The notes under the pieces: model-generated
Seen by the model: only the letters and a program-made list of their open reading frames with translations
What the model was told of the DNA's origin: nothing
Database searches by the model: none
In this document: positions 21,101 to 56,747 of the stretch, piece after piece
Numbering within the stretch: the stretch's first letter is position 1
How the letters are laid out: every line of letters starts with the position of its first letter
Translations under genes and position numbers: made by a program
Origin: Eledone cirrhosa
Lineage: Eukaryota
Length of the DNA: 64,000 nucleotides
Assembly (NCBI GenBank): GCA_964016885.1
Contig: OZ024741.1
Coordinates: 411,990,001 to 412,054,000, forward strand
Direction of reading: 5' to 3'

Positions 21101-22553
21101 TTACCATATTTCTAATGAAAGACACTGTCTATGTTGTTTAACTCTTTTATTACCATATTTCTAATGTAAGACACTGTCTATGTTGTTTAACCCTTTAATT
21201 ACCATATTTCTAATGTAAGACACTGTCTATGTTGTTTAACTTTTTTATTACCATATTTGTAATGTAAGACACTGTCTATGTTGTTTTAACTCTTTTATTA
21301 CCATATTTCTAATGTAAGACACTGTCTATGTTGTTTAATTCTTTTATTACCATATTTGTAATGTAAGACACTGTCTATGTTGTTTAACTCTTTTATTACC
21401 ATATTTGTAATGTAAGACACTGTCTATGTTGTTTAACTCTTTTATTACCATATTTCTAATGTAAGACACTGTCTATGTTGTTTAACTCTTTTATTACCAT
21501 ATTTCTAATGAAAGACACTGTATATGTTGTTTAACTCTTTTATTACCATATTTCTAATGTAAGACACTGTCTATGTTGTTTAACCCTTTAATTACCATAT
21601 TTCTAATGTAAGACACTGTCTATGTTGTTTAACTTTTTTATTACCATATTTGTAATGTAAGACACTGTCTATGTTGTTTTAACTCTTTTATTACCATATT
21701 TCTAATGTAAGACACTGTCTATGTTGTTTAACTCTTTTATTACCATATTTGTAATGTAAGACACTGTCTATGTTGTTTAACTCTTTTATTACCATATTTG
21801 TAATGTAAGACACTGTCTATGTTGTTTAACTCTTTTATTACCATATTTCTAATGTAAGACACTGTCTATGTTGTTTAACTCTTTTATTACCATATTTCTA
21901 ATGTAAGACACTGTCTATGTTGTTTAACTCTTTTATTACCATATTTGTAATGTAAGACACTCTCTATGTTGTTTAACTCTTTTATTACCATATTTGTAAT
22001 GTAAGACACTGTCTATGTTGTTTAACTCTTTTATTACCATATTTGTAATGTAAGACACTGTCTATGTTGTTTAACTCTTTTATTACCATATTTGTAATGT
22101 AAGACACTGTCTATGTTGTTTAACTCTTTTATTACCATATTTGTAATGTAAGACACTGTCTATGTTGTTTAACTCTTTTATTACCATATTTCTAATGTAA
22201 GACACTGTCTATGTTGTTTAACTCTTTTATTACCATATTTGTAATGTAAGACACTGTCTATGTTGTTTAACTCTTTTATTACCATATTTGTAATGTAAGA
22301 CACTGTCTATGTTGTTTAACTCTTTTATTACCATATTTGTAATGTAAGACACTGTCTATGTTGTTTAACTCTTTTATTACCATATTTCTAATGTAAGACA
22401 CTGTCTATGTTGTTTAACTCTTTTATTACCATATTTGTAATGTAAGACACTGTCTATGTTGTTTAACCCTTCCATTACCATATCTCTAATGTAAGACACT
22501 GTCTATGTTGTTTAACTCTTTTATTACATATTTCTAATGAACCATACTGTCTA
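177..22553. repeat. Satellite A: tandem array of a 49-bp unit (48-bp variants), consensus TTAACCCTTTCATTACCATATTTCTAATGTAAGACACTGTCTATGTTGT, roughly 455-460 copies
   Basis: Period read directly (e.g. TAACCCTTTC at 961 recurs at 1010). Copy number estimated as length divided by period. The ORF track shows no ORF within the array body. Confidence 0.98.
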
Positions 22554-22736
22554 TAATTTTCAAATAATTTTGAAAATAATCAAGAAAGTGGTGTGATTTA
22601 GTAATATAAGTAATTTTCCCATTATTAAGCTGGTGTTTGGAATATAACTTAAGAAAAATTCTTACATAAAATTATGATGGAAAGTTTTTAGACGAATATA
22701 AAGACTTTAAATGAAAGAGGGGTGGCATCAAGAGAG
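181..22736. mobile_element. piggyBac-like non-autonomous element (MITE A) whose left end is amplified into satellite A
   Basis: TTAA at 177-180 and 22737-22740. The last array unit runs into a non-repeated AT-rich body (22554-22736) ending GGTGGCATCAAGAGAG|TTAA, whose reverse complement CTCTCTTGATGCCA matches the unit start CTCTTTTATTACCA at 10/14. The body is similar to 43848-44000. A TTAA target with CCC/CTC-starting termini is the piggyBac signature. Confidence 0.72.
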
Positions 22737-23167
22737 TTAATACAGGTGTGTTTAGTAATTATTTAATATCATAGAATGGAGAAAATGTGTCAGTGTTTGT
22801 TGGTGTTTGAATCACTGCTTCACTACCTTTCTTGAGATTTAAGGAGTGCCACTCAGCTCCCCACCTCACATTCCTCTCATGTTGACATACTTTCACACAC
22901 ATACATATACATACATAGATGCATACACTCACTCACTCACACACTCATGTATATGGATGTGTGAGTGTCTAATGGTGTGTGTCCTTTACAGGTACATATG
23001 GCTGAAAGATACAAAACACACACTGACACTAACATACATATACTCCCATGCAGGTTTTGCAGGCCTACTATGAGGGCGTATTAAATTGGAGGTTTCTTGA
23101 AGTGTTCCACAGCACCTCCCACTCTTCCGGGTTCACCCACCACCCTAACACATTCTATCACCTTTAC

Positions 23168-23370
23168 CATCATCATCATCACCGTTTAACGTCCATTTTT
23201 CTACACTATGATGGGTTAGATCAGTTGTCCTGTTGTGAGCAATGCTAGGTCAGGTGACCATGTCTTGCTTATACAGAACTGATTTGGGTTTGGTTTCTAC
23301 AGCTGGATACCCTTCCTAGTGTCAACCTCATTTACAGTGTGGACTGGGTCCTTTTTGTCATGACACCTAC
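23168..23370 (-). mobile_element. RTE-related SINE/non-autonomous element remnant (3' tail plus RTE-5'UTR-derived body), host of satellite B
   Basis: The minus strand of 23168-23200 reads GAAAAATGGACGTTAAACGGTGATGATGATG, like the RTE 3' end at ~56548-56595. 23291-23370 on the minus strand matches the RTE 5' region at 53387-53450 (CCCAGTCCA..CTGTAA..AGGAAGGG.ATCCA). Confidence 0.75.
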
Positions 23371-26300
23371 ATGACCACTCTACAGTGTGGAGTGGGTCCT
23401 TTTTGTCATGATACCTACATGACCACTTTACAGTGTGGAGTGGGTCCTTTTTGTCATGACACCTACATGACCACTTTACAGTGTGGAGTGGGTCCTTTTT
23501 GTCATGATACCTACATGACCACTCTACAGTGTGGAGTGGGTCCTTTTTGTCATGATACCTACATGACCACTCTACAGTGTGGAGTCGGTCCTTTTTGTCA
23601 TGACACCTACATGACCACTTTACAGTGTGGAGTGGGTCCTTTTTGTCATGACACCTACATGACCACTCTACAGTGTGGACTGGGTGCTTTTTGTCATGAC
23701 ACCTACATGACTACTTTACAGTGTGGAGTGGGTCCTTTTTGTCATGACACCTACATGACCACTCTACAGTGTGGACTGGGTGCTTTTTGTCATGACACCT
23801 ACATGACTACTTTACAGTGTGCAGTGGGTCCTTTTTGTCATGATACCTACATGACCACTTTACAGTGTGGAGTGGGTCCTTTTTGTCATGATACCTACAT
23901 GACTACTTTACAGAGTGGACTGGGTGCTTTTTGTCATGACACCTACATGACTACTTTACAGTGTGGAGTGGGTCCTTTTTGCCATGATACCTACATGACT
24001 ACTTTACAGTGTGGACTGGGTGCTTTTTGTCATGACACCTACATGACTACTTTACAGAGTGGACTGGGTGCTTTTTGTCATGACACCTACATGACTACTT
24101 TACAGTGTGGAGTGGGTCCTTTTTGTCATGATACCTACATGACTACTTTACAGAGTGGACTGGGTGCTTTTTGTCATGACACCTACATGACTACTTTACA
24201 GTGTGGAGTGGGTCCTTTTTGTCATGACACCTACATGACTACTTTACAGAGTGGACTGGGTGCTTTTTGTCATGACACCTACATGACTACTTTACAGTGT
24301 GGACTGGGTGCTTTTTGTCATGACACCTACATGACTACTTTACAGAGTGGACTGGGTGCTTTTTGCCCTGACACCTACATGACCACTTTAAAGAGTGGAC
24401 TGGGTGCTTTTTGTCATGATACCTACATGACCACTTTACAGTGTGGACTGGGTGCTTTTTGTCATGATACCTACATGACTACTTTACAGTGTGGACTGGG
24501 TGATTTTGTCATGACACCTACATGACTACTTTACAGTGTGGAGTGGGTCCTTTTTGTCATGATACCTACATGACCACTTTACAGTGTGGAGTGGGTCCTT
24601 TTTGTCATGATACCTACATGACCACTTTACAGTGTGGAGTGGGTCCTTTTTGTCATGATACCTACATGACCACTTTACAGTGTGGAGTGGGTCCTTTTTG
24701 TCATGATACCTACATGACCACTTTACAGTGTGGACTGGGTGCTTTTTGTCATGACACCTACATGACTACTTTACAGAGTGGACTGGGTGCTTTTTGTCAT
24801 GACACCTACATGACCACTTTACAGTGTGGACTGGGTGCTTTTTGCCCTGACACCTACATGACCACTTTACAGTGTGGACTGGGTGCTCTTTGTCATGACA
24901 CCTACATGACCACTTTACAGTGTGGACTGGGTGCTTTTGTCATGACACCTACATGACCACTTTACAGTGTGGACTGGGTGCTTTTTGTCATGATACCTAC
25001 ATGACTACTTTACAGTGTGGACTGGGTGCTTTTTGTCATGACACCTACATGACCACTTTACAGTGTGGAGTGGGTCCTTTTTGTCATGATACCTACATGA
25101 CCACTTTACAGTGTGGACTGGGTGCTTTTTGTCATGACACCTACATGACTACTTTACAGAGTGGACTGGGTGCTTTTTGTCATGACACCTACATGACCAC
25201 TTTACAGTGTGGACTGGGTGTTTTTTGTTGTGACACCTACATGACTACTTTACAGTGTGGGCTGGGTACTTTTTGTTGTGACACCTACATGACCACTCTA
25301 CAGTGTGGAGTGGGTGTTTTTTGTTGTGACACCTACATGACCACTTTACAGTGTGGACTGGGTGTTTTTTGTTGTGACACCTACATGACCACTTTACAGT
25401 GTGGACTGGGTGCCTTTTGTCATGACACTTACATGACCACTTTACAGTGTGGACTGGGTGTTTTTTGTTGTGACACCTACATGACCACTTTACAGTGTGG
25501 ACTGGGTATTTTTTGTCATGACACCTACATGACCACTTTACAGTGTGGACTGGGTACTTTTTGTTGTTATACCTACATGACCACTTTACAGTGTGGACTG
25601 GGTGTTTTTTGTTGTGACAGCTACATGACCACCTTACAGTGTGGGCTGGGTACATTTTGTTGTGACAGCTACATGACCACTTTACAGTGTGGACTGGGTG
25701 CCTTTTGTCATGAAACCTACATGACCACTTTACAGTGTAGACTGGGTACTTTTTGTTGTTACACCTACATGACCAGTTTACAGTGTGGGCTGGGTACCTT
25801 TTGTTGTGACACCTACATGACCACTTTACAGTGTGGACTGGGTGTTTTTTGTTGTGACACCTACATGACCACTTTACAGTGTGGACTGGGTATTTTTTGT
25901 CATGACACCTACATGACCACTTTACAGTGTGGACTGGGTGTTTTTTGTTGTGACACCTACATGACCACTTTACAGTGTGGACTGGGTATTTTTTGTCATG
26001 ACACCTACATGACCACTTTACAGTGTGGACTGGGTGTTTTTTGTTGTGACAGCTACATTGTGACAGCTATTTTGTTGTGACACCTACATGACCACTTTAC
26101 AGTGTGGACTGGGTGCCTTTTGTCATGACACCTACATGACCACTTTACAGTGTAGACTGGGTGTTTTTTGTTCTGACACCTACATGACTACTTTACAGTG
26201 TAGACTGGGTACTTTTTGTTGTTACACCTACATGACCACTTTACAGTGTGGGATGGGTACCTTTTGTTGTGACACCTACATGACCACTTTACAGTGTGGA

Positions 26301-29300
26301 CTGGGTGTTTTTTGTTGTGACACCTACATGACCACTTTACAGTGTGGACTGTGTGCCTTTTGTCATGACACCTACATGACCACTTTACAGTGTGGACTGG
26401 GTGTTTTTTGTTGTGACACCTACATAACCACTTTACAGTGTGGACTGGGTATTTTTTGTCATGACACCTACATGACCACTTTACAGTGTGGACTGGGTAC
26501 TTTTTGTTGTTATACCTACATGACCACTTTACAGTGTGGACTGGGTGTTTTTTGTTGTGACAGCTACATGACCACTTTACAGTGTGGGCTGGGTACATTC
26601 TGTTGTGACAGCTACATGACCACTTTACAGTGTGGACTGGGTGCCTTTTGTCATGACACCTACATGACCACTTTACAGTGTAGACTGGGTACTTTTTGTT
26701 GTTACACCTACATGACCACTTTACAGTGTGGGCTGGGTACCTTTTGTTGTGACACCTACGTAACCACTTTACAGTGTGGACTGGGTGTTTTTTGTTGTGA
26801 CACCTACATGACCACTTTACAGTGTGGACTGGGTGCTTTTTGTCATTACACCTACATGACCACTTTACAGTGTGGACTGGGTGCTTTTTGTCATGATACC
26901 TACATGACTACTTTACAGTGTGGACTGGGTGCTTTTTGTCATGACACCTACATGACCACTTTACAGTGTGGAGTGGGTCCTTTTTGTCATGATATCTACA
27001 TGACCACTTTACAGTGTGGAGTGGGTCCTTTTTGTCATGATACCTACATGACCACTTTACAGTGTGGACTGGGTGCTTTTTGTCATGACACCTACATGAC
27101 TACTTTACAGAGTGGACTGTTGCTTTTTGTCATGACACCTACATGACCACTTTACAGTGTGGACTGGGTGCTTTTTGCCCTGACACCTACATGACCACTT
27201 TACAGTGTGGACTGGGTGCTCTTTGTCATGACACCTACATGACCACTTTACAGTGTGGACTGGGTGCTTTTTGTCATGACACCTACATGACCACTTTACA
27301 GTGTGGACTGGGTGCTTTTTGTCATGATACCTACATGACTACTTTACAGTGTGGACTGGGTGCTTTTTGTCATGACACCTACAAGACCACTTTACATTGT
27401 GGAGTGGGTCCTTTTTGTCATGATACCTACATGACTACTTTACAGTGTGGACTGGGTGCTTTTTGTCATGACACCTACATGACTACTTTACAGAGTGGAC
27501 TGGGTGCTTTTTGTCATGACACCTACATGACCACTTTACAGTGTGGACTGGGTGTTTTTTGTTGTGACACCTACATGACTACTTTACAGTGTGGGCTGGG
27601 TACTTTTTGTTGTGACACCTACATGACCACTTTACAGTGTGGACTGGGTGTTTTTTGTTGTGACACCTACATGACCACTTTACAGTGTGGACTGGGTGCC
27701 TTTTGTCATGACACCTACATGACCACTTTACAGTGTGGACTGGGTGTTTTTTGTTGTGACACCTACATGAGCACTTTACAGTGTGGACTGGGTGTTTTTT
27801 GTTGTGACACCTACATGACTACTTTACAGTGTGGGCTGGGTACTTTTTGTTGTGACACCTACATGACCACTTTACAGTGTGGACTGGGTGCTTTTTGTTG
27901 TGACACCTACATGACCACTTTACAGTGTGGACTGGGTATTAATTGTCATGACACCTACATGACCACTTTACAGTGTGGACTGGGTACTTTTTGTTGTTAT
28001 ACCTACATGACCACTTTACAGTGTGGACTGGGTGTTTTTTGTTGTGACAGCTACATGACCACTTTACAGTGTGGGCTGGGTACATTTTGTTGTGACAGCT
28101 ACATGACCACTTTACAGTGTGGACTTGGTGTTTTTTGTTGTGACACCTACATGACCACTTTACAGTGTGGACTGGGTATTTTTTGTCATGACACCTACAT
28201 GACCACTTTACAGTGTGGAGTGGGTGTTTTTTGTTGTGACACCTACATGACCACTTTACAGTGTGGACTGGGTGTTTTTTGTTGTGACAGCTACATGACG
28301 ACTTTACAGTGTCGGCTGGGTACATTTTGTTGTGACAGCTACATGACCACTTTACAGTGTGGACTGGGTGCCTTTTGTCATGACACCTACATGACCACTT
28401 TACAGTGTAGACTGGGTACTTTTTGTTGTTACACCTACATGACCACTTTACAGTGTGGGCTGGGTACCTTTTGTTGTTACACCTACATGACCACTTTACA
28501 GTGTGGACTGGGTGTTTTTTGTTGTGACACCTACATGACCACTTTACAGTGTGGAGTGTGTGCCTTTTGTCATGATACCTACATGACCACTTTACAGTGT
28601 GGACTGGGTGTTTTTTGTTGTGACACCTACATGACCACTTTACAGTGTGGACTGGGTATTTTTTGTCATGACACCTACATGACCACTTTACAGTGTGGAC
28701 TGGGTACTTTTTGTTGTTATACCTACATGACCACTTTACAGTGTGGACTGGGTGTTTTTTGTTGTGACAGCTACATGACCACTTTACAGTGTGGGCTGGG
28801 TACATTCTGTTGTGACAGCTACATGACCACTTTACAGTGTGGACTGGGTGCCTTTTGTCATGACACCTACATGACCACTTTACAGTGTAGACTGTGTGCT
28901 TTTTGTCATGACACCTACATGACCACTTTACAGTGTGGACTGGGTGCTTTTTGTCATGACACCTACATGACCACTTTACAGTGTGGACTGGGTGCTTTTT
29001 GTCATGATACCTACATGACTACTTTACAGTGTGGACTGGGTGCTTTTTGTCATGACACCTACATGACCACTTTACAGTGTGGAGTGGGTCCTTTTTGTCA
29101 TGATACCTACATGACTACTTTACAGTGTGGACTGGGTGCTTTTTGTCATGACACCTACATGACTACTTTACAGAGTGGACTGGGTGCTTTTTGTCATGAC
29201 ACCTACATGACCACTTTACAGTGTGGACTGGGTGTTTTTTGTTGTGACACCTACATGACTACTTTACAGTGTGGGCTGGGTACTTTTTGTTGTGATACCT

Positions 29301-32300
29301 ACATGACCACTTTACAGTGTGGACTGGGTGTTTATTGTTGTGACACCTACATAACCACTTTACAGTGTGGGCTGGGTATTTTTTGTCATGACACCTACAT
29401 GACCACTTTACAGTGTGGACTGGGTACTTTTTGTTGTTATACCTACATGACCACTTTACAGTGTGGACTGGGTGTTTTTTGTTGTGACAGCTACATGACC
29501 ACTTTACAGTGTGGGCTGGGTACATTTTGTTGTGACAGCTACATGAGCACTTTACAGTGTGGACTTGGTGTTTTTTGTTGTGACACCTACATGACCACTT
29601 TACAGTGTGGACTGGGTATTTTTTGTCATGACACCTACATGACCACTTTACAGTGTGGAGTGGGTGTTTTTTGTTGTGACACCTACATGACCACTTTACA
29701 GTGTGGACTGGGTATTTTTTGTCATGACACCTACATGACCACTTTACAGTGTGGACTGGGTGTTTTTTGTTGTGACAGCTACATGACCACTTTACAGTGT
29801 GGGCTGGGTACATTTTGTTGTGACAGCTACATGACCACTTTACAGTGTCGGCTGGGTACATTTTGTTGTGACAGCTACATGACCACTTTACAGTGTGGAC
29901 TGGGTGCCTTTTGTCATGACACCTACATGGCCAATTTACAGTGTAGACTGGGTACTTTTTGTTGTTACACCTACATGACCACTTTACAGTGTGGGCTGGG
30001 TACCTTTTGTTGTGACACCTACATGACCACTTTACAGTGTGGACTGGGTGTTTTTTGTTGTGACACCTACGTGACCACTTTACAGTGTGGACTGTGTGCC
30101 TTTTGTCATGACACCTACATGACCACTTTACAGTGTGGACTGGGTGTTTTTTGTTGTGACACCTACATGACCACTTTACAGTGTGGACTGGGTATTTTTT
30201 GTCATGACACCTACATGACCACTTTACAGTGTGGACTGGGTACTTTTTGTTGTTATACCTACATGACCACTTTACAGTGTGGACTGGGTGTTTTTTGTTG
30301 TGACAGCTACATGACCACTTTACAGTGTGGGCTGGGTACATTCTGTTGTGACAGCTACATGACCACTTTACAGTGTGGACTAGGTGCCTTTTGTCATGAC
30401 ACCTACATGACCACTTTACAGTGTAGACTGGGTGCTTTTTGTCATGACACCTACATGACCACTTTACAGTGTGGACTGGGTGCTTTTTGCCCTGACACCT
30501 ACATGACCACTTTACAGTGTGGACTGGGTGCTCTTTGTCATGACACCTACATGACCACTTTACAGTGTGGACTGGGTGCTTTTTGTCATGACACATACAT
30601 GACCACTTTACAGTGTGGACTGGGTGCTTTTTGTCATGATACCTACATGACTACTTTACAGTGTGGACTGGGTGCTTTTTGTCATGACACCTACATGACC
30701 ACTTTACAGTGTGGAGTGGGTCCTTTTTGTCATGATACCTACATGACTACTTTACAGTGTGGACTGGGTGCTTTTTGTCATGACACCTACATGACTACTT
30801 TACAGAGTGGACTGGGTGCTTTTTGTCATGACACCTACATGACCACTTTACAGTGTGGACTGGGTGTTTTTTGTTGTGACACCTACATGACTACTTTACA
30901 GTGTGGGCTGGGTACTTTTTGTTGTGACACCTACATGACCACTTTACAGTGTGGACTGGGTGTTTTTTGTTGTGACACCTACATGACCACTTTACAGTGT
31001 GGACTGGGTATTTTTTGTCATGACACCTACATGACCACTTTACAGTGTGGACTGGGTACTTTTTGTTGTTATACCTACATGACCACTTTACAGTGTGGAC
31101 TGGGTGTTTTTTGTTGTGACAGCTACATGACCACTTTACAGTGTGGGCTGGGTACATTCTGTTGTGACAGCTACATGACCACTTTACAGTGTGGACTAGG
31201 TGCCTTTTGTCATGACACCTACATTACCACTTTACAGTGTAGACTGGGTGCTTTTTGTCATGACACCTACATGACCACTTTACAGTGTGGACTGGGTGCT
31301 TTTTGCCCTGACACCTACATGACCACTTTACAGTGTGGACTGTGTGCTCTTTGTCATGACACCTACATGACCACTTTACAGTGTGGACTGGGTGCTTTTT
31401 GTCATGACACCTACATGACCACTTTACAGTGTGGACTAGGTGCTTTTTGTCATGATACCTACATGACTACTTTACAGTGTGGACTGGGTGCTTTTTGTCA
31501 TGACACCTACATGACCACTTTACAGTGTGGAGTGGGTCCTTTTTGTCATGATACCTACATGACTACTTTACAGTGTGGACTGGGTGCTTTTTGTCATGAC
31601 ACCTACATGACTACTTTACAGAGTGGACTGGGTGCTTTTTGTCATGACACCTACATGACCACTTTACAGTGTGGACTGGGTGTTTTTTGTTGTGACACCT
31701 ACATGACTACTTTACAGTGTGGGCTGGGTACTTTTTGTTGTGACACCTACATGACCACTTTACAGTGTGGACTGGGTGTTTTTTGTTGTGACACCTACAT
31801 GACCACTTTACAGTGTGGACTGGGTATTTTTTGTCATGACACCTACATGACCACTTTACAGTGTGGACTGGGTACTTTTTGTTGTTATACCTACATGACC
31901 ACTTTACAGTGTGGACTGGGTGTTTTTTGTTGTGACAGCTACATGACCACTTTACAGTGTGGGCTGGGTACATTTTGTTGTGACAGCTACATGACCACTT
32001 TACAGTGTGGACTGGGTGCCTTTTGTCATGACACCTACATGACCACTTTACAGTGTAGACTGGGTACTTTTTGTTGTTACACCTACATGACCACTTTACA
32101 GTGTGGGCTGGGTACCTTTTGTTGTGACACCTAAATGACCACTTTACAGTGTGGACTGGGTGTTTTTTGTTGTGACACCTACATGACCACTTTACAGTGT
32201 GGACTGGGTGCCTTTTGTCATGACACCTACATGACCACTTTACAGTGTGGACTTGGTTTTTTTTTGTTGTGACACCTACATGACCACTTTACAGTGTGGA

Positions 32301-34711
32301 CTGGGTGTTTTTCGTTGTGACACCTACATGACCACTTTACAGTGTGGACTGGGTATTTTTTGTCATGACACCTACATGACCACTTTACAGTGTGGACTGG
32401 GTGTTTTTTGTTGTGACAGCTACATGACCACTTTACAGTGTCGGCTGGGTACATTTTGTTGTGACAGCTACATGACCACTTTACAGTGTGGACTGGGTGC
32501 CTTTTGTCAGGACACCTACATGACCACTTTACAGTGTGGACTGGGTACTTTTTGTTGTTATACCTACTTGACCACTTTACAGTGTGGACTGGGTGCTTTT
32601 TGTCATGACACCTACATGACCACTTTACAGTGTGGACTGGGTGCTTTTTGTCATGATACCTACATGACTACTTTACAGTGTGGACTGGGTGCTTTTTGTC
32701 ATGACACCTACATGACCACTTTACAGTGTGGAGTGGGTCCTTTTTGTCATGATACCTACATGACTACTTTACAGTGTGGACTGGGTGCTTTTTGTCATGA
32801 CACCTACATGACTACTTTACAGAGTGGACTGGGTGCTTTTTGTCATGACACCTACATGACCACTTTACAGTGTGGACTGGGTGTTTTTTGTTGTGACACC
32901 TACATGACTACTTTACAGTGTGGGCTGGGTACTTTTTGTTGTGACACCTACATGACCACTTTACAGTGTGGACTGGGTGTTTTTTGTTGTGACACCTACA
33001 TGACCACTTTACAGTGTGGACTGGGTATTTTTTGTCATGACACCTACATGACCACTTTACAGTGTGGACTGGGTACTTTTTGTTGTTATACCTACATGAC
33101 CACTTTACAGTGTGGACTGGGTGTTTTTTGTTGTGACAGCTACATGACCACTTTACAGTGTGGGCTGGGTACATTTTGTTGTGACAGCTACATGACCACT
33201 TTACAGTGTGGACTGGGTGCCTTTTGTCATGACACCTACATGACCACTTTACAGTGTAGACTGGGTACTTTTTGTTGTTACACCTACATGACCACTTTAC
33301 AGTGTGGGCTGGGTACCTTTTGTTGTGACACCTAAATGACCACTTTACAGTGTGGACTGGGTGTTTTTTGTTGTGACACCTACATGACCACTTTACAGTG
33401 TGGACTGGGTGCCTTTTGTCATGACACCTACATGACCACTTTACAGTGTGGACTTGGTTTTTTTTTGTTGTGACACCTACATGACCACTTTACAGTGTGG
33501 ACTTGGTTTTTTTTCGTTGTGACACCTACATGACCACTTTACAGTGTGGACTGGGTATTTTTTGTCATGACACCTACATGACCACTTTACAGTGTGGACT
33601 GGGTATTTTTTGTCATGACACCTACATGACCACTTTACAGTGTGGACTGGGTGTTTTTTGTTGTGACAGCTACATGACCACTTTACAGTGTCGGCTGGGT
33701 ACATTTTGTTGTGACAGCTACATGACCACTTTACAGTGTGGACTGGGTGCCTTTTGTCAGGACACCTACATGACCACTTTACAGTGTAGACTGGGTACTT
33801 TTTGTTGTTACACCTACATGACCACTTTACAGTGTGGGCTGGGTACCTTTTGTTGTGACACCTACATGACCACTTTACAGTGTGGACTGGGTGTTTTTTG
33901 TTGTGACACCTACATGACCACTTTACAGTGTGGACTGGGTGTTTTTTGTTGTGACACCTACATGACCACTTTACAGTGTGGACTGGGTATTTTTTGTCAT
34001 GACACCTACATGACCACTTTACAGTGTGGACTGGGTACTTTTTGTTGTTATACCTACTTGACCACTTTACAGTGTGGACTGGGTGTTTTTTGTTGTGACA
34101 GCTACATGACCACTTTACAGTGTGGGCTGGGTACATTCTGTTGTGACAGCTACATGACCACTTTACAGTGTGGACTGGGTGCCTTTTGTCATGACACCTA
34201 CATGACCACTTTACAGTGTAGACTGGGTACTTTTTGTTGTTACACCTACATGACCACTTTACAGTGTGGGCTGGGTACCTTTTGTTGTGACACCTACATA
34301 ACCACTTTACAGTGTGGACTGGGTGTTTTTTGTTGTGACACCTACATGACCACTTTACAGTGTGGGCTGGGTACATTTTGTTGTGACAGCTACATGACCA
34401 CTTTACAGTGTGGACTGGGTGCCTTTTGTCATGACACCTACATGACCACTTTACAGTGTAGACTGGGTACTTTTTGTTGTGACACCTACACGACCACTTT
34501 ACAGTGTGGACTGGGTACTTTTTGTTGTTACACCTACATGACGACTTTACAGTGTGGGCTGGGTACATTTTGTTGTGACAGCTACATGACCACTTTACAG
34601 TGTGGACTGGATGCCTTTTGTCATGACACCTACATGACCACTTTACAGTGTAGACTGGGTACCTTTTGTTGTGACACCTACATAACCACTTTACAGTGTG
34701 GACTGGGTACT
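23331..34711. repeat. Satellite B: 48-bp tandem array, consensus ATGACCACTTTACAGTGTGGACTGGGTGCTTTTTGTCATGACACCTAC, about 237 copies
   Basis: Period of 48 read directly (16-aa periodicity in the ORF track). Occasional 1-bp indels and one partial unit near 26055. Confidence 0.98.
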
Positions 34712-34785
34712 TCACCATGTCAAATTCCCCAATACTTGGTCACACCACTGTAGGCGCCAGAGAACCATTAGGTGTGTCAGGGGCA

Positions 34786-34890
34786 TGACAACCTCTCTCG
34801 TGTTGGTGACCTACAGGATAAATGAGCGCCCAGTACACTCTGTAAAGTGGTTGGTGAAAGGAAGGGGATCTAGATATAGAAAACTTGCCA
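34786..34890 (+). mobile_element. SINE/RTE 5'-region fragment, inverted relative to satellite B
   Basis: GACAACCTCTCTCGTGTTGGTG..GCGCCCAGTACACTCTGTAAAGTGGTTGGTGAAAGGAAGGGGATC aligns by eye to 53369-53450. Confidence 0.7.
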
Positions 34891-35068
34891 ACTCACACAT
34901 AGGATCACAAGGACTTTTCAGGTGTGTCAAAACTATAACAATTTCCTGAGTGTTCGTAACACATTAAAATGACTCTGGTATAGTGTACAAGAGGGTATGT
35001 TTGGCCCCCAGCCCACTCAGAGGGCAGAAACTCTGCTTCAGTACAGACATTATATGATGATAATGATG

Positions 35069-35126: not shown

Positions 35127-35694
35127 CCCTTTTCCATTTACATTACTCTATATATACTATTGTATTGTCACAGTAAAGGCTATACCCCACATAATATCTC
35201 ACATAACATTTACATTACTCTATATACACTATTGTATTGTCACAGTAAAGGCTTTACCCCACATAATATCTCACATAACATTTACATTACTCTATATATA
35301 CTATTGTATTGTCACAGTAAAGGCTTTACCTCACATAATATCTCACATAACATTTACATTACTCTATATATACTATTGTATTTTCACAGTAAAGGTTTTA
35401 CCTCACATAATATCTCACATAACATTTACATTACTCTATATATACTATTGTATTTTCACAGTAAATGTTTTACCTCACATAATATCTCACATAACATTTA
35501 CATTACTCTATATACACTATTGTATTGTCACAGTAAAGGCTTTACCTCACTTAATATCGAATCTATGAGATTTTGATATTGTTTATTTTGAGAACAATAC
35601 CTTAACATCAGTATAAGTGGCCAGTTACGGCTGGTTTGAACAGAAAGAGGTGAGAGAATTCTGGCTGGATACGGCTGGTTTAAATCCTAAGGGG
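35127..35694. mobile_element. Second piggyBac-like MITE (MITE B) with an internal tandem expansion
   Basis: TTAA at 35123-35126 and 35695-35698. Left end CCCTTTTCCATTTA versus right-end reverse complement CCCCTTAGGATTTA (10/14). Confidence 0.72.
35137..35558. repeat. 72-bp tandem repeat, about 5.9 copies, inside MITE B
   Basis: TTTACATTACTC recurs at 35137, 35209, 35281, 35353, 35425 and 35497. Confidence 0.95.
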
Positions 35695-36098: not shown

Positions 36099-39000
36099 TA
36101 GCTTACTACTGTAGAGCCTTGGCCTCCATAGGGCAGTATCTAGCTTACTACTGTAGAGCCTTGGCTTTCATAGGGCAGTATCTAGCTTACTACTGTAGGG
36201 CCTTGGCCTCCATAGGGCAGTATCTAGCTTACTACTGTAGGGCCTTGGCTTTCATAGGGCAGTATCTAGCTTACTACTGTAGAGCCTTGGCCTCCATAGG
36301 GCAGTATCTAGCTTACTACTGTAGAGCCTTGGCCTCCATAGGGCAGTATCTAGCTTACTACTGTAGAGCCTTGGCCTCCATAGGGCAGTATCTAGCTTAC
36401 TACTGTAGAGCCTTGGCCTCCATAGGGCAGTATCTAGCTTACTACTGTAGAGCCTTGGCCTCCATAGGGCAGTATCTAGCTTACTACTGTAGAGCCTTGG
36501 CCTCCATAGGGCAGTATCTAGCTTACTACTGTAGAGCCTTGGCTTTCATAGGGCAGTATCTAGCTTACTACTGTAGAGCCTTGGCCTCCATAGGGCAGTA
36601 TCTAGCTTACTACTGTAGGGCCTTGGCTTTCATAGGGCAGTATCTAGCTTACTACTGTAGGGCCTTGGCCTCCATAGGGCAGTATCTAGCTTACTACTGT
36701 AGGGCCTTGGCCTCCATAGGGCAGTATCTAGCTTACTACTGTAGAGCCTTGGCCTCCATAGGGCAGTATCTAGCTTACTACTGTAGGGCCTTGGCCTTCA
36801 TAGGGCAGTATCTAGCTTACTACTGTAGGGCCTTGGCCTTCATAGGGCAGTATCTAGCTTACTACTGTAGGGCCTTGGCCTTCATAGGGCAGTATCTAGC
36901 TTACTACTGTAGGGCCTTGGCCTCCATAGGGCAGTATCTAGCTTACTACTGTAGAGCCTTGGCCTCCATAGGGCAGTATCTAGCTTACTACTGTAGGGCC
37001 TTGGCCTTCATAGGGCAGTATCTAGCTTACTACTGTAGGGCCTTGGCCTTCATAGGGCAGTATCTAGCTTACTACTGTAGGGCCTTGGCCTTCATAGGGC
37101 AGTATCTAGCTTACTACTGTAGGGCCTTGGCCTCCATAGGGCAGTATCTAGCTTACTACTGTAGAGCCTTGGCTTTCATAGGGCAGCATCTAGCTTACTA
37201 CTGTAGGGCCTTGGCCTCCATAGGGCAGTATCTAGCTTACTACTGTAGGGCCTTGGCCTCCATAGGGCAGTATCTAGCTTACTACTGTAGAGCCTTGGCC
37301 TCCATAGGGCAGTATCTAGCTTACTACTGTAGAGCCTTGGCCTCCATAGGGCAGTATCTAGCTTACTACTGTAGAGCCTTGGCTTTCATAGGGCAGTATC
37401 TAGCTTACTACTGTAGAGCCTTGGCTTTCATAGGGCAGTATCTACCTTACTACTGTAGAGCCTTGGCCTCCATAGGGCAGTATCTAGCTTACTACTGTAG
37501 GGCCTTGGCCTCCATAGGGCAGTATCTAGCTTACTACTGTAGAGCCTTGGCTTTCATAGGGCAGTATCTAGCTTACTACTGTAGGGCCTTGGCTTTCATA
37601 GGGCAGTATCTAGCTTACTACTGTAGAGCCTTGGCCTCCATAGGGCAGTATCTAGCTTACTACTGTAGGGCCTTGGCCTCCATAGGGCAGTATCTAGCTT
37701 ACTACTGTAGGGCCTTGGCCTCCATAGGGCAGTATCTAGCTTACTACTGTAGAGCCTTGGCCTCCATAGGGCAGTATCTAGCTTACTACTGTAGAGCCTT
37801 GGCCTCCATAGGGCAGTATCTAGCTTACTACTGTAGAGCCTTGGCCTCCATAGGGCAGTATCTAGCTTACTACTGTAGAGCCTTGGCTTTCATAGGGCAG
37901 TATCTAGCTTACTACTGTAGAGCCTTGGCCTCCATAGGGCAGCATCTAGCTTACTACTGTAGAGCCTTGGCCTCCATAGGGCAGCATCTAGCTTACTACT
38001 GTAGAGCCTTGGCCTCCATAGGGCAGCATCTAGCTTACTACTGTAGGGCCTTGGCTTTCATAGGGCAGTATCTAGCTTACTACTGTAGAGCCTTGGCCTC
38101 CATAGGGCAGTATCTAGCTTACTACTGTAGGGCCTTGGCCTCCATAGGGCAGTATCTAGCTTACTACTGTAGGGCCTTGGCCTCCATAGGGCAGTATCTA
38201 GCTTACTACTGTAGGGCCTTGGCTTTCATAGGGCAGCATCTAGCTTACTACTGTAGGGCCTTGGCTTTCATAGGGCAGCATCTAGCTTACTACTGTAGGG
38301 CCTTGGCTTTCATAGGGCAGTATCTAGCTTACTACTGTAGAGCCTTGGCCTCCATAGGGCAGTATCTAGCTTACTACTGTAGGGCCTTGGCCTCCATAGG
38401 GCAGTATCTAGCTTACTACTGTAGGGCCTTGGCCTCCATAGGGCAGTATCTAGCTTACTACTGTAGGGCCTTGGCCTCCATAGGGCAGTATCTAGCTTAC
38501 TACTGTAGGGCCTTGGCTTTCATAGGGCAGTATCTAGCTTACTACTGTAGAGCCTTGGCCTCCATAGGGCAGTATCTAGCTTACTACTGTAGGGCCTTGG
38601 CCTCCATAGGGCAGTATCTAGCTTACTACTGTAGGGCCTTGGCCTCCATAGGGCAGTATCTAGCTTACTACTGTAGGGCCTTGGCTTTCATAGGGCAGTA
38701 TCTAGCTTACTACTGTAGAGCCTTGGCCTCCAAAGGGCAGTATCTAGCTTACTACTGTAGAGCCTTGGCCTCCATAGGAAAGTATCTAGCTTACTACTGT
38801 AGAGCCTTGGCCTCCATAGGGCAGTATCTAGCTTACTACTGTAGGGCCTTGGCCTCCATAGGGCAGTATCTAGCTTACTACTGTAGGGCCTTGGCCTCCA
38901 TAGGGCAGTATCTAGCTTACTACTGTAGGGCCTTGGCCTCCATAGGGCAGTATCTAGCTTACTACTGTAGAGCCTTGGCCTCCATAGGGCAGTATCTAGC

Positions 39001-42000: not shown

Positions 42001-43351
42001 GGCTTTCATAGGGCAGTATCTAGCTTACTACTGTAGAGCCTTGGCCTCCATAGGGCAGTATCTAGCTTACTACTGTAGAGCCTTGGCTTTCATAGGGCAG
42101 TATCTAGCTTACTACTGTAGGGCCTTGGCTTTCATAGGGCAGTATCTAGCTTACTACTGTAGGGCCTTGGCCTCCATAGGGCAGTATCTAGCTTACTACT
42201 GTAGAGCCTTGGCCTCCATAGGGCAGTATCTAGCTTACTACTGTAGAGCCTTGGCCTCCATAGGGCAGTATCTAGCTTACTACTGTAGGGCCTTGGCCTC
42301 CATAGGGCAGTATCTAGCTTACTACTGTAGGGCCTTGGCTTTCATAGGGCAGTATCTAGCTTACTACTGTAGGGCCTTGGCCTCCATAGGGCAGTATCTA
42401 GCTTACTACTGTAGAGCCTTGGCCTCCATAGGGCAGTATCTAGCTTACTACTGTAGAGCCTTGGCCTCCATAGGGCAGTATCTAGCTTACTACTGTATGG
42501 CCTTGGCCTCCATAGGGCAGTATCTAGCTTACTACTGTAGGGCCTTGGCCTCCATAGGGCAGTATCTAGCTTACTACTGTAGGGCCTTGGCCTCCATAGG
42601 GCAGTATCTAGCTTACTACTGTAGGGCCTTGGCCTCCATAGGGCAGTATCTAGCTTACTACTGTAGAGCCTTGGCTTTCATAGGGCAGTATCTATCTTAC
42701 TACTGTAGGGCCTTGGCCTCCATAGGGCAGTATCTAGCTTACTACTGTAGGGCCTTGGCTTTCATAGGGCAGTATCTAGCTTACTACTGTAGAGCCTTGG
42801 CCTCCATAGGGCAGTATCTAGCTTACTACTGTAGGGCCTTGGCCTCCATAGGGCAGTATCTAGCTTACTACTGTAGGGCCTTGGCCTCCATAGGGCAGTA
42901 TCTAGCTTACTACTGTAGGGCCTTGGCCTCCATAGGGCAGTATCTAGCTTACTACTGTAGGGCCTTGGCCTCCATAGGGCAGTATCTAGCTTACTACTGT
43001 AGGGCCTTGGCCTCCATAGGGCAGTATCTAGCTTACTACTGTAGAGCCTTGGCTTTCATAGGGCAGTATCTAGCTTACTACTGTAGGGCCTTGGCCTCCA
43101 TAGGGCAGTATCTAGCTTACTACTGTAGGGCCTTGGCTTTCATAGGGCACATCCAGCTACCTGTAGGGCCTTGGCCTCCATAGGGCAGCATCTAGCTTAC
43201 TACTGTAGGGCCTTGGCTTTCATAGGGCACATCCAGCTACCTGTAGGGCCTTGGCTTTCATAGGGCAGTATCTAGCTTACTACTGTAGGGCCTTGGCCTC
43301 CATAGGGCAGTATCTAGCTTACTACTGTAGGGCCTTGGCTTTCATAGGGCA
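36099..43351. repeat. Satellite C: 42-bp tandem array, TAGCTTACTACTGTAG(A/G)GCCTTGGC(CTC/TTT)CATAGGGCAGTATC, about 172 copies, very homogeneous
   Basis: Period of 42 read directly. Only two common variable sites. Two shortened variant units near 43148 and 43228. Confidence 0.98.
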
Positions 43352-43459: not shown

Positions 43460-43845
43460 GATGTAGGTTTAGCTGACATCTTACAAGCTTGCATTTTGTA
43501 AGGTCTTTGGGGGTGTTTTAAAGATAGGTGCCCCAGTCATGTCAAGTTGTTGTTGTTGTTACAGCTCACACTGATGTAGGTTTAGCTGACCTTTTACGAA
43601 GTCGTACTTTGTAAAGTTTTTTGGGGTTGTTTTAAATATAGTGGCCCCAATCCTATCATGCTGTTATAGCTCACAGCTATTTAGATTTAGCTGACTTCCT
43701 GCAACGTGGCATTTTGAAAGGCTTTTGAGGAGTGCTTTAAATATCGGGCCCCTAATCCTGTCATGTTGTTGTTATTGTTACAGCTCACATTTAGCTGGGG
43801 GCATTTTGAAAAGTTTTTCATGGGTGTATGTTACAACGGCCCCTA
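43460..43845. repeat. Old, diverged ~105-113-bp tandem repeat, about 3.5 copies
   Basis: GATGTAGGTTTAGCTGAC at 43460 and 43573, with a related motif at ~43678. Each copy ends ...GTTA(C/T)AGCTCACA. Confidence 0.85.
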
Positions 43846-43847
43846 TA

Positions 43848-45291: not shown

Positions 45292-45667
45292 CATCATCAT
45301 CATTGTCATCATTTTACGTCCGCTTTTCACTGCTTGCAAGGGTGGGACAGGAACAGATTCTGGCTCCATCTCTACAGCTGGATGCCCTTCCGAACACCAA
45401 CCTCATCTACAGTGTGGGCTGGGTGCTTTTTTTCCGTGGCGCCTACACGCCCACTTTACAGTGTGGGCTGGGTGGCACCTCCACGACCACTTTGCAGTGG
45501 AATATAGAGACCCCAGTCCCTATCATCTCATTTCTACAGCTGAGTAAACTGGAGCAATGTGAAATAAAGTGTCTTGCTCAAGGAAACAACACATCACCCA
45601 GTCTGAGAATTGAACTCAACCTTTCGATTGCAAGGCCAATGCTCTAACCACTAAGCCATGTGCCTCC
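45292..45667 (-). mobile_element. Apparently complete tRNA-derived SINE with bipartite RTE-related body and tail
   Basis: Head with A box TGGCTTAGTGG (45658-45648) and B box GAGTTCAATTC (45617-45607), then TCCTTGAGCAAGACACTT. An RTE-5'-like segment (45500-45370) follows. The 3' end CCTGTCCCACCCTTGCAAGCAGTGAAAAGCGGACGTAAAATGATGA closely matches the RTE end at 56525-56570, then a (GAT)n tail. It could be two abutting elements rather than one. Confidence 0.75.
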
Positions 45668-45751
45668 ATGTGGACGTAAAAACAATGACGATAGTGACTA
45701 CCAGATAAAAATAATAAAAAAAAGATATGTAACTTTCTGAGGGTTCTCCAT

Positions 45752-49933: not shown

Positions 49934-49965
49934 GTTGGATGAGAAACGGGGCAAGTGAGAAAGGG

Positions 49966-52076: not shown

Positions 52077-52145
52077 TAATAATAATAATATACCGAGTGA
52101 GGGATATACCGAGTGAGGGATATACCGACACAAGAGTGGAGTAAT

Positions 52146-53078: not shown

Positions 53079-53125
<47 letters not shown>

Positions 53126-53254
53126 ATGTATATGTGATGTGAATGTTAATATTTAAATTTGTGCATATAGCCCACCCACCCGCCCCACCTCCACCACATT
53201 TGGTATCCATACCCAACGCTGTACGATAACCGCTCTCTTGTGAATATATTATCG

Positions 53255-56200
53255 AACAGACAAGGGGTGGACGGAGGCTCTGTAAGCCGTAGTGTAGGCA
53301 ACCCGTCTACGAGAGCTACCACTCCGAATAAATTGGTGCGGGGTAGAGAAGTCCCCTAATACCAGTAAGACAACTTCCCTAGTGTTGGTGGCACGAATAA
53401 AAGCACCCAGTCCATGCTGTAAGGTGGTGCTGGTGTTAGGAAGGGCATCCAACCAGAATGAAATTTGCAACAACTGCGTAAACAGCAATAACACTAACCA
53501 TGTTAGGGCTGCGCATGGTAGTGGGGTGGCTGGTGCGGCCATGTGCGAGAATCCCCCAACCGTCATCAAACAATCGCACAACAGGAAAAAGAACGAGATG
53601 TCGCATCTCGGAGTTTCCACACTTAATGTTGGCACTCTAACAGATAGATCTTGTGAGATAGCGGAGATGCTGGAGAGAAGGCATGTGGATGTGTGCTGCA
53701 TGCAAGAGGTGAGATGGAGAGGTGCCTCTGCAAGACTAATCGCAGGCAAACATCGGAGTTATAAGCTTTTCTGGGTGGGTAATGATGATTGGTTAGGTGG
53801 GGTGGGTATATTACTGGCTGAGAGGTGGATCAGTAAGACAATAGAGGTAGTTAGAGTTAGTGTTAGAATAATTAAGCTTAGGTTAGTTGTAGACAAGAGA
53901 TTACTGACAATCATCTCTACTTATGCTCTCCAGGTAGGCCAAGGAAAAGAAGAGAAAGACTGCTTTTACGAGCAACTTTTACAAACAGCCTCAATGACAG
54001 AGATCAGAGACATCGTTATGCTAGCAGGGGACTTCAATGGACATGTTGGACAGCTCCAGGATGGATACACTGGGGTACATGGTGGGCACGGTTACGGCTC
54101 AAGAAATGAAGAAGGAGTGAGACTTCTTGAATTTTGTGATGCAAATGCACTAACCATTTACAACACTAACTTCCAGAAGCCTACCAACCACCTAATAACC
54201 TACAAATCAGGCGAGCACATAAGCCAGATTGACTTCTTGCTAGTTAGACAGCGAGACAGACAGATGGTGTCAAATATTAAGGCATAGCCTGGGGAAGAAT
54301 GTACCCCACATCATAGGTTAGTCGTTAGTGACATCTCAGTAAGCATGAGAAAGAATGAGACATACAGGAAGGTCTGGGAGCTAAAAGACCTTTTATTAAA
54401 ATATAAATTTAGCAAAGCCCTTCAAGATGTGTATGACGAAAAAGAAGACGATTTAGAGTTGTATGACATAGATAATAACTGGAATTTCTTACGTGACAAC
54501 TTACTGGAGGCTACTGAAGAAACTTATGGTTGGGGCAGAGCTTCAACCAGATAGAGAGTGACCTGGTGGTGGAACAGCATGGTAGATAGGGCCATTAGAG
54601 ACAAAAGACTGGCATGGAAGGCTTGGAAAAAGGGTGGGAGTAGGGAAGGATACACAGCCGCTAGAAGAGAAGCTAGACGTCAGGTGTACTTAGCACGCAG
54701 GGAGGCTGAGAGTAGGAGGTTTGCCAATGTTCTGCGATGGGAAAATCAGAAACATGCGGTGTTCCGCATTGCAAGGCAGTGTGTCAATGCAAATCAGGAT
54801 GTTGTTGGAGATAAGTATGTCCGGAATGATCGGAAAAAGGAGGCCTGGAAATGTCACTATGAGAGACTGATGAATGGGACAGAGAGAAATTATCCCCAAT
54901 AGACCCAACAGAGGGACCAGCTATTGAGATTGATGAATATAGGGTACAAGAGGCAATTAAAGAAATGAAGAATGATAAGGTTGCTGGTCCGTCGGGGATA
55001 GTTGCTGTGATGCTGAAGGCATCAGGTGAAGTAGGCATTAAACTGGTTGCATGCATCATCAATCAAGTTATATATGGTGGTGTCATACCCAAAGACTGGT
55101 GCAGCAGTATTCTCATAAATTGCTACAAAGGTAAAGGGGATGCTCTGGAGAGGAGCACTTATATGGGCATAAAGCTGATGGATCAGGTTATGAAACTGAT
55201 TAGAGAAAGGGTCAAATTAGATGAGATGCAGTTTGGTTTTGTGCCTGGGAAAAGTACAACAGTGAGGCAACTACAAGAGAAGTTCTTAGAGAAGAATAAG
55301 CCATTATACTTAGCTTTTGTTGACCTAGAGAAGGCCTTTGAGGGTACCCCGATCTGTCATCTGGTGGTCCCTAAAGAACTAGGTGTAGAGGAATGGCTTG
55401 TGAGGGCAGTGCAAGCTATGTACAGGGGTGCTGTCAGTAAAGTGAGAGAGGTATGAAGTTTAGTGGGGAATTTCAGATACAAGTAGGTGTACATCAAGGT
55501 TCGGTTCTCAGCCCGCTCTTGTTCATTATAGTCTTCCAAGCCATAACAGAGGAGTTTAAGACTGGCTGTCCATGGGAACTTCTCTATGCTGACGATCTGG
55601 TTCTTATAGCAGAATCAGTAGAGGAGCTAGAGAATAAATTCTGGCTATGGAAACAGCAGTTGGAATTAAGAGGACTGAGAGTGAACCTAACTAAGGCAAA
55701 AGCGTTGATAAGTAGAAGAGAGGACAATACTCCGATTCCATCAAGGAAATGGCCATGTTCGAAATGCAGAAAAGGAACTGGCATAAATTCCATAAAATGT
55801 ACGCAAAGCAGATCTTGGGTACACAAGAGATGTAGTGGGATAGCAGGCAAACTAACAGGTAGGGAAAACTACGTATGCAGTAGATGTACAGGGAAAGTTG
55901 GCAGTAGTAATCACAGTGATAGACACATTTTTCCAATGCAGGTGGGTTCTATAGAAGTGCTTGATAGCTTCCGGTACCTAGGTGATCAGATTAGCATGGG
56001 AGAGGGTTGTTCCGAGGCCATAGTATCTAGAATAAGGACGGGTTGGAAGAAGTTTAGGGAGCTGCTTCCTTTGTTGACAAAGAAGGGTTTCTCCCTGCAT
56101 ACGAAAGGACGGTTATATGATGCCTGTGTGAGATACGCAATGCTGCATGGTAGTGAGACATGGGCAGCAACTGCAGAAGATATGCCACGGCTGGAGAGAC

Positions 56201-56596
56201 ATGAAGCAAGTATGCTCCGTTGGATGTGCAATGTCAATGTGCGTGGACGACCAAGCATAGACGAGTTGAGAAAGAAACTGGGTATAAGAGGGATAAGTTG
56301 TGGTGTGCAGGAGAGAAGGCTGAGATGGTATGTACATGTGATGCGCATGGAGGATGACCGGTGGGTAAAGAAGTGCCAAGAAATCCCAGTAGAAGGAAGA
56401 CGCAGTAGAGGTAGACCACGAAAACCATGGGTGGAGGTGGTGAGAACAGACCTCAGATCGCTGAAACCCACCGAGGAGATGACGAAGGACCGTGACAAAT
56501 GGAGAGATGCTGTGCTGAATAGGACCTGTCCAACCCTTGCAAGAAGGGAAAAGCGACGTAAAATTATGATGTTGATGATGATGATGATGATGATAA
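53255..56596 (+). mobile_element. RTE-clade LINE, near full length, defective
   Basis: 5' region with GGCAACCCGTCTA and AGGAAGGGCATCC motifs, a single EN-RT ORF and a (GAT)n tail at ~56567-56596. The 5' boundary is approximate. Confidence 0.92.

Positions 56597-56688: not shown

Positions 56689-56747
<59 letters not shown>

What the first reader, a model, noticed from the sequence alone, without database searches (positions are those of the whole stretch)
23168..34711. Satellite B is a runaway amplification of a 48-bp piece of an RTE-derived SINE body
Seen: the unit's reverse complement GTAGGTGTCATGACAAAAAGCACCCAGTCCACACTGTAAAGTGGTCAT aligns to the 5' region of the RTE LINE in this window (53387-53428, GGTGGCACGAATAAAAGCACCCAGTCCATGCTGTAAGGTGGT). 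The array's left flank continues with the rest of that motif and then an RTE-type 3' tail. Established: RTE-mobilised SINEs can be bipartite, carrying both 5'UTR and 3' end fragments of the LINE. Inference: LINE, SINE and satellite stages of one lineage are all present here. Array transcripts would be sense or antisense to a large SINE/LINE family and could feed small-RNA silencing.
Basis: partly seen in the sequence, partly recalled or inferred. Interest (0 to 1): 0.75.

Follow-up and report, generated by a model that had tools for sequence, protein, structure and literature searches.

The report
Satellite grown from a LINE's tail
This 11-kb block of 48-letter repeats is attached to the tail of a jumping gene (an RTE LINE) whose other copies mostly carry one to a few of these units, and it likely ballooned in place after landing; this is a new example of a known way for satellite DNA to arise, and nothing here shows that it has a job.

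Summary
The array (23331-34712, 48 bp x 236.5) and its homology to the window LINE's 5' UTR are real (38/46 ungapped; score 60, shuffle maximum 37). The donor is not the SINE. The whole 163-bp left flank is the 3' end of a second RTE LINE family (RTE-V), in which 1-15 units follow the stop codon (29 of 30 ORF-selected copies; tail in 26 of 30). A tRNA-headed SINE carries a related unit but shares only the first ~55 bp of that flank. The window LINE (RTE-W) is a different family, 60-66% identical to RTE-V. The window element is an RTE-V copy cut off at its 5' side inside the repeat, with an 8/9 candidate target-site duplication and internal block duplications of 816 and 1201 bp, so it likely grew in place. 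It is not unique: 14 other multi-kb arrays were examined, among them a 66-kb array still held between an RTE-V ORF end and tail, and a ~698-kb array on contig C25 (a quarter read). Closest known: satellites from Ogre 3' UTR repeats and squamate SINE-derived satellites. Small-RNA function is untested. New member of a known kind.

The parts
23162..23170 (.). Candidate target-site duplication, copy at the element's 3' end (overlaps the last 3 bases of the (TGA)n tail)
   Evidence: 8 of 9 bases match 34710-34718; 145 of 20000 random flank pairs gave as good a match
23168..23330 (-). 3' end of the RTE-V LINE 3' UTR: rest of the motif, family-specific ~110-bp tail, (TGA)n
   Evidence: Aligns over 119-163 bases at 74-89% to 26 of 30 ORF-selected RTE-V copies; only its first 37-58 bases align to the SINE in 29 of 30 copies
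23331..34712 (-). 48-bp tandem array, ~237 units, 80 variants, mean pairwise identity 90%; starts inside a unit (5'-truncated element)
   Evidence: duplicated blocks at offsets of 17, 25 and 42 units
34710..34718 (.). Candidate target-site duplication, copy at the element's 5' end (overlaps the first 3 bases of the array)
34770..35068 (+). Neighbour, not part of the insertion: copy of another dispersed family that carries the same motif and ends in (TGA)n; ends approximate
   Evidence: 34787-34870 is 77% identical to 53369-53449; 1116 candidates genome-wide; copies shown
45292..45670 (-). tRNA-headed SINE with one full and one shortened unit, the motif, and a short tail like that of the window LINE; a relative, not the donor
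   Evidence: Rfam tRNA match 45604-45658, 27.8 bits, below the gathering score of 29, E 0.0012; family of near-identical copies; tail 79% to 56500-56583
53382..53451 (+). The homologous motif in the 5' UTR of the window LINE (RTE-W)
   Evidence: present in 16 of 24 other copies, in 14 of these two or three times at ~89-bp spacing
53200..56595 (+). Decayed RTE-W LINE (5' limit approximate); a different family from the donor
   Evidence: Pfam PF03372 and PF00078; ORF broken into several frames; 60-66% DNA identity to RTE-V copies

Best explanation
The array sits in the 3' UTR end of a 5'-truncated RTE LINE copy (family RTE-V) and likely expanded in place, from a few 48-bp units to ~237, after the copy was inserted. 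Shown: in RTE-V the unit follows the stop codon after a short linker and precedes the tail, at 1-15 units per copy. Inferred steps: (1) an RTE-V ancestor took up, as its 3' end, a segment related to the 5' UTR motif of RTE-W-like LINEs, probably through a non-autonomous element; (2) the segment begins and ends with similar sequence 48 bp apart, so it duplicates easily and became a variable tandem repeat; (3) target-primed reverse transcription spread thousands of copies, many cut off inside the repeat; (4) a few copies grew by slippage and unequal exchange to kilobases and, rarely, to tens or hundreds of kilobases. The process is most likely neutral.
For: ORF-selected copies: 29 of 30 carry at least one unit (1 unit: 9 copies; 2: 10; 3: 4; 4: 1; 7: 2; 14: 2; 15: 1) and 26 of 30 the tail. 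One of the 30 is the query locus, and L060/L067 are a duplicated pair (L065/L075 probably too), so about 27 are independent. The ORF ends about 30 bases before the unit in the copies translated, more where the linker is longer. Three near-full-length copies (L090, L093, L096) have endonuclease, RT and zinc-finger remnants, and their own 5' UTR lacks the motif (scores 16-19, shuffle means 18-20). Window units are 86-89% identical to units of three mid-size RTE-V arrays, 81% to short RTE-V units, 76% to SINE units and 75% to the RTE-W motif. Candidate target-site duplication 8/9, chance 145 of 20000. Internal block duplications: 22 units at an 816-bp offset, 19 units at 1201 bp; a distinct variant is confined to the tail-proximal end. 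Of 14 other multi-kb arrays, the 3' end was seen in 13: 8 end in the tail, 1 in a remnant, 4 in none. The C3 array (65.8 kb) lies between 245 bp of RTE-V ORF end plus linker and the tail, far too long for an RTE transcript.
Against: The window copy has no LINE sequence on its 5' side, so its assignment rests on the tail and the unit. A non-autonomous RTE-V derivative is not excluded. Long arrays are more alike in their units (88-95%) than in their tails (66-87% to the window's), and 54% of the C14 array's units are identical to a window variant. This fits exchange between loci, or insertion of an already long array, as well as independent growth; these arrays were picked by likeness to the window, which inflates the figure. 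No empty site was seen. All RTE-V copies read are decayed.
Confidence: 0.82

Rival explanations
1. One reading: the array is an amplified piece of the body of an RTE-derived SINE.
For: A tRNA-headed SINE with the unit exists, also in this window, and has two units in 2 of 30 copies plus a shortened second unit in the window copy. Bipartite RTE-derived SINEs are well described (PMC5786205).
Against: The SINE's tail differs after ~55 bases of the flank. SINE units are the most distant from the array's among the 48-bp units compared, at 76%. 0 of 29 tail-selected copies have the SINE head upstream. No SINE head lies on the array's 5' side.
Confidence: 0.06
2. The array was already long when it arrived: a multi-kb stretch was copied from another long array by retrotransposition or DNA-level exchange, and long arrays on different chromosomes keep exchanging units.
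For: Long arrays on at least 8 contigs are 88-95% alike in spite of diverged tails and share the CpG-less variant. Genome-wide the CpG-less 30-mer has 23393 exact matches against 2861 for the CpG-bearing one.
Against: 11.4 kb is three times a full RTE-V copy. Large internal duplications and a positional gradient point to growth at this site. CpG loss can recur by itself. The arrays compared were selected by likeness to the window.
Confidence: 0.2
3. The array is kept because its transcripts feed piRNA or siRNA silencing of RTE LINEs and SINEs.
For: The unit is shared, at 70-80% identity, by several abundant families. PIWI genes and piRNAs are reported as broadly expressed in molluscs (PMC6128900, search listing only).
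Against: The continuum from 1 to thousands of units is explained without selection. Six folds of motif, unit and tail were no more stable than shuffles (z -1.2 to +1.0). Thousands of dispersed copies already offer the same sequence.
Confidence: 0.06
4. The array length is an assembly artefact.
For: Long tandem arrays are often mis-sized in assemblies (general knowledge); no read spanning the array was seen.
Against: 80 distinct variants in an ordered, non-periodic series; different flanks on both sides with a candidate target-site duplication; one contig of run X1, perhaps the source sample, runs from the unique left flank 26 bases into the tail.
Confidence: 0.03

Closest known systems
Satellites from tandem repeats in the 3' UTR of Ogre LTR retrotransposons (Lathyrus sativus, PMC7004042: abstract and Discussion read; PisTR-A of pea as cited in PMC9659126, passages)
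   Same: A short variable repeat in a retrotransposon's 3' UTR is dispersed with the element and occasionally expands into long arrays; all stages coexist.
   Different: The host is a non-LTR RTE LINE of an animal. The unit itself derives from a 5' UTR motif of other LINEs. Chromosomal position of the long arrays (primary constrictions in Lathyrus) is not known here.
SINE-derived satellites sSat1-3 of squamate reptiles (PMC10702118: part 1 of 5 and passages read)
   Same: Part of a retroposon is repeated in tandem inside individual copies, from a few to hundreds of units, with the element's ends often left as leading and trailing pieces.
   Different: The donor here is a LINE 3' UTR. The unit is shorter (48 bp against about 70-290). 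The longest array is ~14500 units, against 320 for the longest Indian cobra locus in the passage seen.
Bipartite RTE-derived SINEs and non-autonomous LINEs (Kojima 2018, PMC5786205: parts 1-3 of 5 read)
   Same: An internal piece of an RTE 5' UTR sits next to an RTE 3' end; tails are exchanged between families; some RTE 5' UTRs hold a conserved piece twice. The window SINE fits this pattern.
   Different: Here the 5' UTR piece is fixed in the 3' UTR of a coding LINE family and is the unit of a tandem repeat; the parts read describe neither. Whether this motif is the paper's Ceph-domain piece was not tested (its figures are not held).
Common cetacean satellite (L1 3' part) and HeT-A-derived 18HT satellite (as listed in the review PMC9659126, passages)
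   Same: Satellite derived from the 3' non-coding part of a non-LTR retrotransposon.
   Different: Other LINE clades; intermediate stages still attached to the element were not described in the passages seen.

Membership tests
Satellite from a retrotransposon 3' UTR tandem repeat (Ogre-type route) | Unit occurs as a short tandem repeat in the 3' UTR of dispersed element copies | tested here: met
   29 of 30 ORF-selected RTE-V copies, 1-15 units, after the stop codon
Satellite from a retrotransposon 3' UTR tandem repeat (Ogre-type route) | Expanded arrays still flanked by element sequence | tested here: met
   Window: tail on the 3' side; C3: ORF end on the 5' side and tail on the 3' side of 65.8 kb; 8 of 13 other arrays with a visible 3' end carry the tail
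Satellite from a retrotransposon 3' UTR tandem repeat (Ogre-type route) | Long arrays gathered in primary constrictions | not testable with these tools
   No centromere data for this genome
SINE-derived satellite (sSat) | Unit is part of a SINE family | tested here: inconclusive
   A SINE holds a homologous unit at 76%, but LINE units are closer (81-89%)
SINE-derived satellite (sSat) | Array lies inside a SINE copy (head and/or SINE tail as flanks) | tested here: not met
   Flank is the RTE-V tail; only ~55 of 163 bases match the SINE; no head on the 5' side
RTE-clade LINE (donor RTE-V) | One ORF region with AP endonuclease and reverse transcriptase | tested here: met
   PF14529 and PF00078 on fragments of L090 and L093; colinear with RTE-W at 60-66%; all copies read are broken
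RTE-clade LINE (donor RTE-V) | Short tandem-repeat 3' tail and 5'-truncated copies | tested here: met
   (TGA)n ends and variable 5' starts
RTE-clade LINE (donor RTE-V) | Placement in the RTE clade by RT phylogeny or library match | not tested
   No Repbase or Dfam library on hand; the clade name rests on layout and on my recall of RTE features
piRNA/siRNA source locus | Produces small RNAs with PIWI signatures | not testable with these tools

The most novel reading that the evidence does not exclude
The 48-bp unit, born in a LINE 3' UTR, has become a true chromosome-scale satellite: the ~698-kb array on C25 is centromeric or pericentromeric, and long arrays on different chromosomes are homogenised together as one CpG-less type, giving a full assembled series from one unit in a LINE to a centromere-scale array in a cephalopod-like genome.
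Probability: 0.15. Interest if true: 0.6.

Novelty: new member of a known kind. Interest (0 to 1): 0.27.

Why it matters
It gives an assembled series from 1 unit to ~14500 units, with element ends still attached in many cases, so the birth of a satellite from a LINE 3' UTR can be followed locus by locus in an animal. That documents a known route well; it does not change it. The C25 array is a candidate to test for centromere position in a group for which my searches found no centromeric satellite paper. It also shows a 5' UTR motif moved to the 3' UTR of another LINE family, a small addition to known modular exchange among RTE elements.

Tried and rejected
No RNA holder listed among sequencing runs. 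Run X20, RNA only by guess, laid short pieces on 23287-23327 alone, a stretch shared by many families; not used. Runs with small word shares were not used. Laying four runs on the unique right flank 34714-34790 to look for an empty allele gave no contig; uninformative. A search with the outer left flank found two weak 48-58-bp matches, so no second copy of the target site could be used to test the junction. ARAGORN found no tRNA gene in the window. Rfam found nothing credible in the RTE-W 5' region. Folding of motif, unit and tail showed no stability beyond shuffles; no covariation test was run. The idea that the window LINE is the parent was rejected: the array's tail is not its tail, and its motif repeats at ~89 bp, not 48 bp. 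Literature searches for this satellite listed no paper that describes it. The Octopus vulgaris repeat annotation PMC13282606 has no occurrence of 'satellite' in its main text (passages); its supplements and repeat library were not examined and may hold the family. Repbase and Dfam could not be searched.
Full report
Setting. The window is G000:C2:411990001-412054000, about 4.2 Mb from the end of a 416-Mb contig in a 3.0-Gb genome. The window holds three long arrays (49, 48 and 42 bp), and the neighbouring stretches hold two more (53 and 40 bp).

1. Observation. The 48-bp array runs from 23331 to 34712, 236.5 copies, with 80 variants among 235 segments. A common unit, read on the minus strand, aligns without gaps to 53383-53428 at 38 of 46 bases; score 60 against a maximum of 37 in 300 shuffles. 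The left flank 23168-23330 continues the motif and ends in an RTE-type end with (TGA)n. The LINE at about 53.2-56.6 kb (here RTE-W) has endonuclease and RT domains. The motif is upstream of the ORF in 16 of 24 other RTE-W copies fetched (25 of 40 scored, 2596 candidates), in 14 of them two or three times at ~89-bp spacing.

2. What holds the unit. A search with the flank plus one unit gave 3866 candidates, 40 scored, 30 fetched, one of them the window. The 29 others carry 1-22 units upstream of the same tail. In 10 of 29 the repeat is directly preceded by a shared linker or the end of an RTE ORF, in two more a linker lies further up, and in none is there a SINE head on the same strand within 1.5 kb; most of the rest begin inside the repeat. 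The reverse test used ORF end plus linker as query, without unit or tail (14267 candidates, 40 scored, 30 fetched): 29 of 30 are followed by 1-15 units and 26 of 30 by the tail. One of these is the query locus and one or two pairs are duplicated segments. The exceptions are L057 (another repeat follows the linker), L076, L079 and L081 (no or cut tail). Of 14 copies extended upstream, three share a 5' end and are near full length, about 3.3-3.9 kb with insertions. They are 60-66% identical to RTE-W, show endonuclease, RT and zinc-finger remnants, and lack the motif in their own 5' UTR. So a second RTE family, RTE-V, carries the motif in its 3' UTR as a variable tandem repeat, about 30 bases or more after the stop codon.

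The SINE. At 45292-45670 (minus) lies a SINE with a tRNA-like head, the unit, the motif and a short tail like that of RTE-W. Of 30 copies fetched (40 scored, 1713 candidates), 27 have one unit, two have two, and the window copy has one plus a shortened one. Only the first 37-58 bases of the array's 163-base flank align to the SINE in 29 of 30 copies; the thirtieth match lies in that copy's downstream flank. Window units are 76% identical to SINE units (18 of 30 could be put in register), 81% to short RTE-V units (26 units) and 86-89% to three mid-size RTE-V arrays. The SINE is therefore a relative and not the donor. Whether the SINE took its body from RTE-V or RTE-V took it from an older SINE-like element is not settled.

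The window copy. On its 5' side the array starts inside a unit, against unique sequence. A 9-mer with one mismatch lies at both junctions (23162-23170 and 34710-34718), overlapping tail and unit by 3 bases each; 145 of 20000 random flank pairs did as well. Inside, runs of 22, 19 and 13 near-identical units recur at offsets of 816, 1201 and 2017 bp, and one variant type is confined to the tail-proximal end. The element at 34770-35068 (plus) belongs to another family with the same motif and is not part of the insertion.

The family of arrays. A 3-kb piece of the array found 14 distinct other loci (17 of 8154 candidates scored; three places on C25 proved to be one array). Ten are 2.5-5.4 kb, one is at least 7 kb with its 3' end not reached, and three are much longer. 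Of the 13 whose 3' end was seen, 8 end in an RTE-V-type tail (66-87% to the window's), 1 in a remnant and 4 in none. The C3 array is 65.8 kb and lies between 245 bp of RTE-V ORF end plus linker and the tail. The C1132 array is 77 kb without LINE ends. The C25 array spans about 18,426,700-19,124,300, ~698 kb or ~14500 units, without RTE-V ends; I read about a quarter of it, 28 of 28 interior spot samples were array, and gaps of up to 30 kb were not read. A second query added further arrays, one of ~32 kb on C4. One exact 30-mer of the unit occurs 23393 times in the genome, control 0; it is in 39-46% of units in three arrays and 14% in a fourth, which suggests roughly 50000-60000 units or 2.5-3 Mb (my estimate). 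The window array is one middling member.

3. Mechanism. Shown: position of the unit in the RTE-V 3' UTR, variable unit number, truncated copies, arrays with element ends attached, internal block duplications. Inferred: capture of the motif by RTE-V; first duplication helped by similar sequence at both ends of the unit (RTE-W has near-identical 9-mers at 53382 and 53427); insertion by target-primed reverse transcription; later growth by slippage and unequal exchange. The C3 array makes growth after insertion hard to avoid. Against a purely independent history: long arrays resemble each other more in units (88-95%) than in tails, and nearly all carry the CpG-less variant at one site, which outnumbers the CpG-bearing 30-mer 23393 to 2861. 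Exchange between loci, recurrent CpG loss and my selection by likeness could each explain this. Function: no evidence; folds were unremarkable.

4. Known kinds. Closest is the Ogre route, in which 3' UTR tandem repeats of a retrotransposon occasionally expand into satellites (PMC7004042, abstract and Discussion). Squamate sSats are the SINE counterpart (PMC10702118, part 1 of 5 and passages). Bipartite RTE-derived elements and tail exchange are covered by PMC5786205 (parts 1-3 of 5). LINE 3'-derived satellites are listed in PMC9659126 (passages). It works like the Ogre-type case and meets two of its three features tested or considered; it fails the SINE-hosted test.

5. Novelty. Five searches listed no paper on this satellite; repeat libraries and supplements were not seen. 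Other notes describe several LINE-derived satellites in this genome, so the process is common here.

6. Verdict. Observation confirmed, interpretation partly supported: LINE 3' UTR rather than SINE body, two LINE families rather than one lineage, function untested. New member of a known kind; interest 0.27. The ~698-kb array on C25 is the part most worth a test.

Noticed in passing
G000:C25:18,426,700-19,124,300 (L184, L123-L134, L113): ~698-kb array of the same 48-bp unit; its 5' flank translates to a stretch resembling a Helitron Rep motif (recalled, not tested) and its 3' end is a short fold-back; another tandem repeat lies at 18.30-18.33 Mb.
   Followed up: partly
G000:C3:226,015,950-226,081,762 (L163-L165, L135-L138): 65.8-kb array held between an RTE-V ORF end and the RTE-V tail; it keeps more CpG (0.89 per unit) than the window array (0.05).
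   Followed up: yes
window 35135-35558; L160, L161 (C1132:300 kb and 400 kb): The 72-bp unit, six copies in the window, is 96% identical to a tandem repeat seen in spot samples on contig C1132, which may be a large satellite there.
   Followed up: partly
window 34770-35068; L034 (C24:16,542,628-16,543,423): A further dispersed family carries the same motif in a ~142-bp unit that is tandemly repeated at C24; with the 89-bp repeat of RTE-W this makes three different periods built on one motif.
   Followed up: partly
window 176-22554; L057: The 49-bp array (458 copies) has an 85% identical relative at L057, where it follows an RTE-V linker in place of the 48-bp unit. The sequence after the array (22551-22711) recurs at 43843-44003.
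   Followed up: partly
window 36099-43351: 42-bp array (173 copies, 96% matches) whose plus strand is an open frame of 2366 codons by periodicity alone; no match to RTE-V or RTE-W.
   Followed up: partly
window 46804-51800 and 59965-61678: Two decayed LINE copies of another kind (minus strand; endonuclease and RT frames by eye), 71% identical to each other over 1.4 kb.
   Followed up: no
G000:C1:386,000-2,304,000: The first exact matches of the array-type 30-mer cluster in several arrays within 2.3 Mb of the start of C1, and the window lies near the end of C2; enrichment near chromosome ends was not tested.
   Followed up: no
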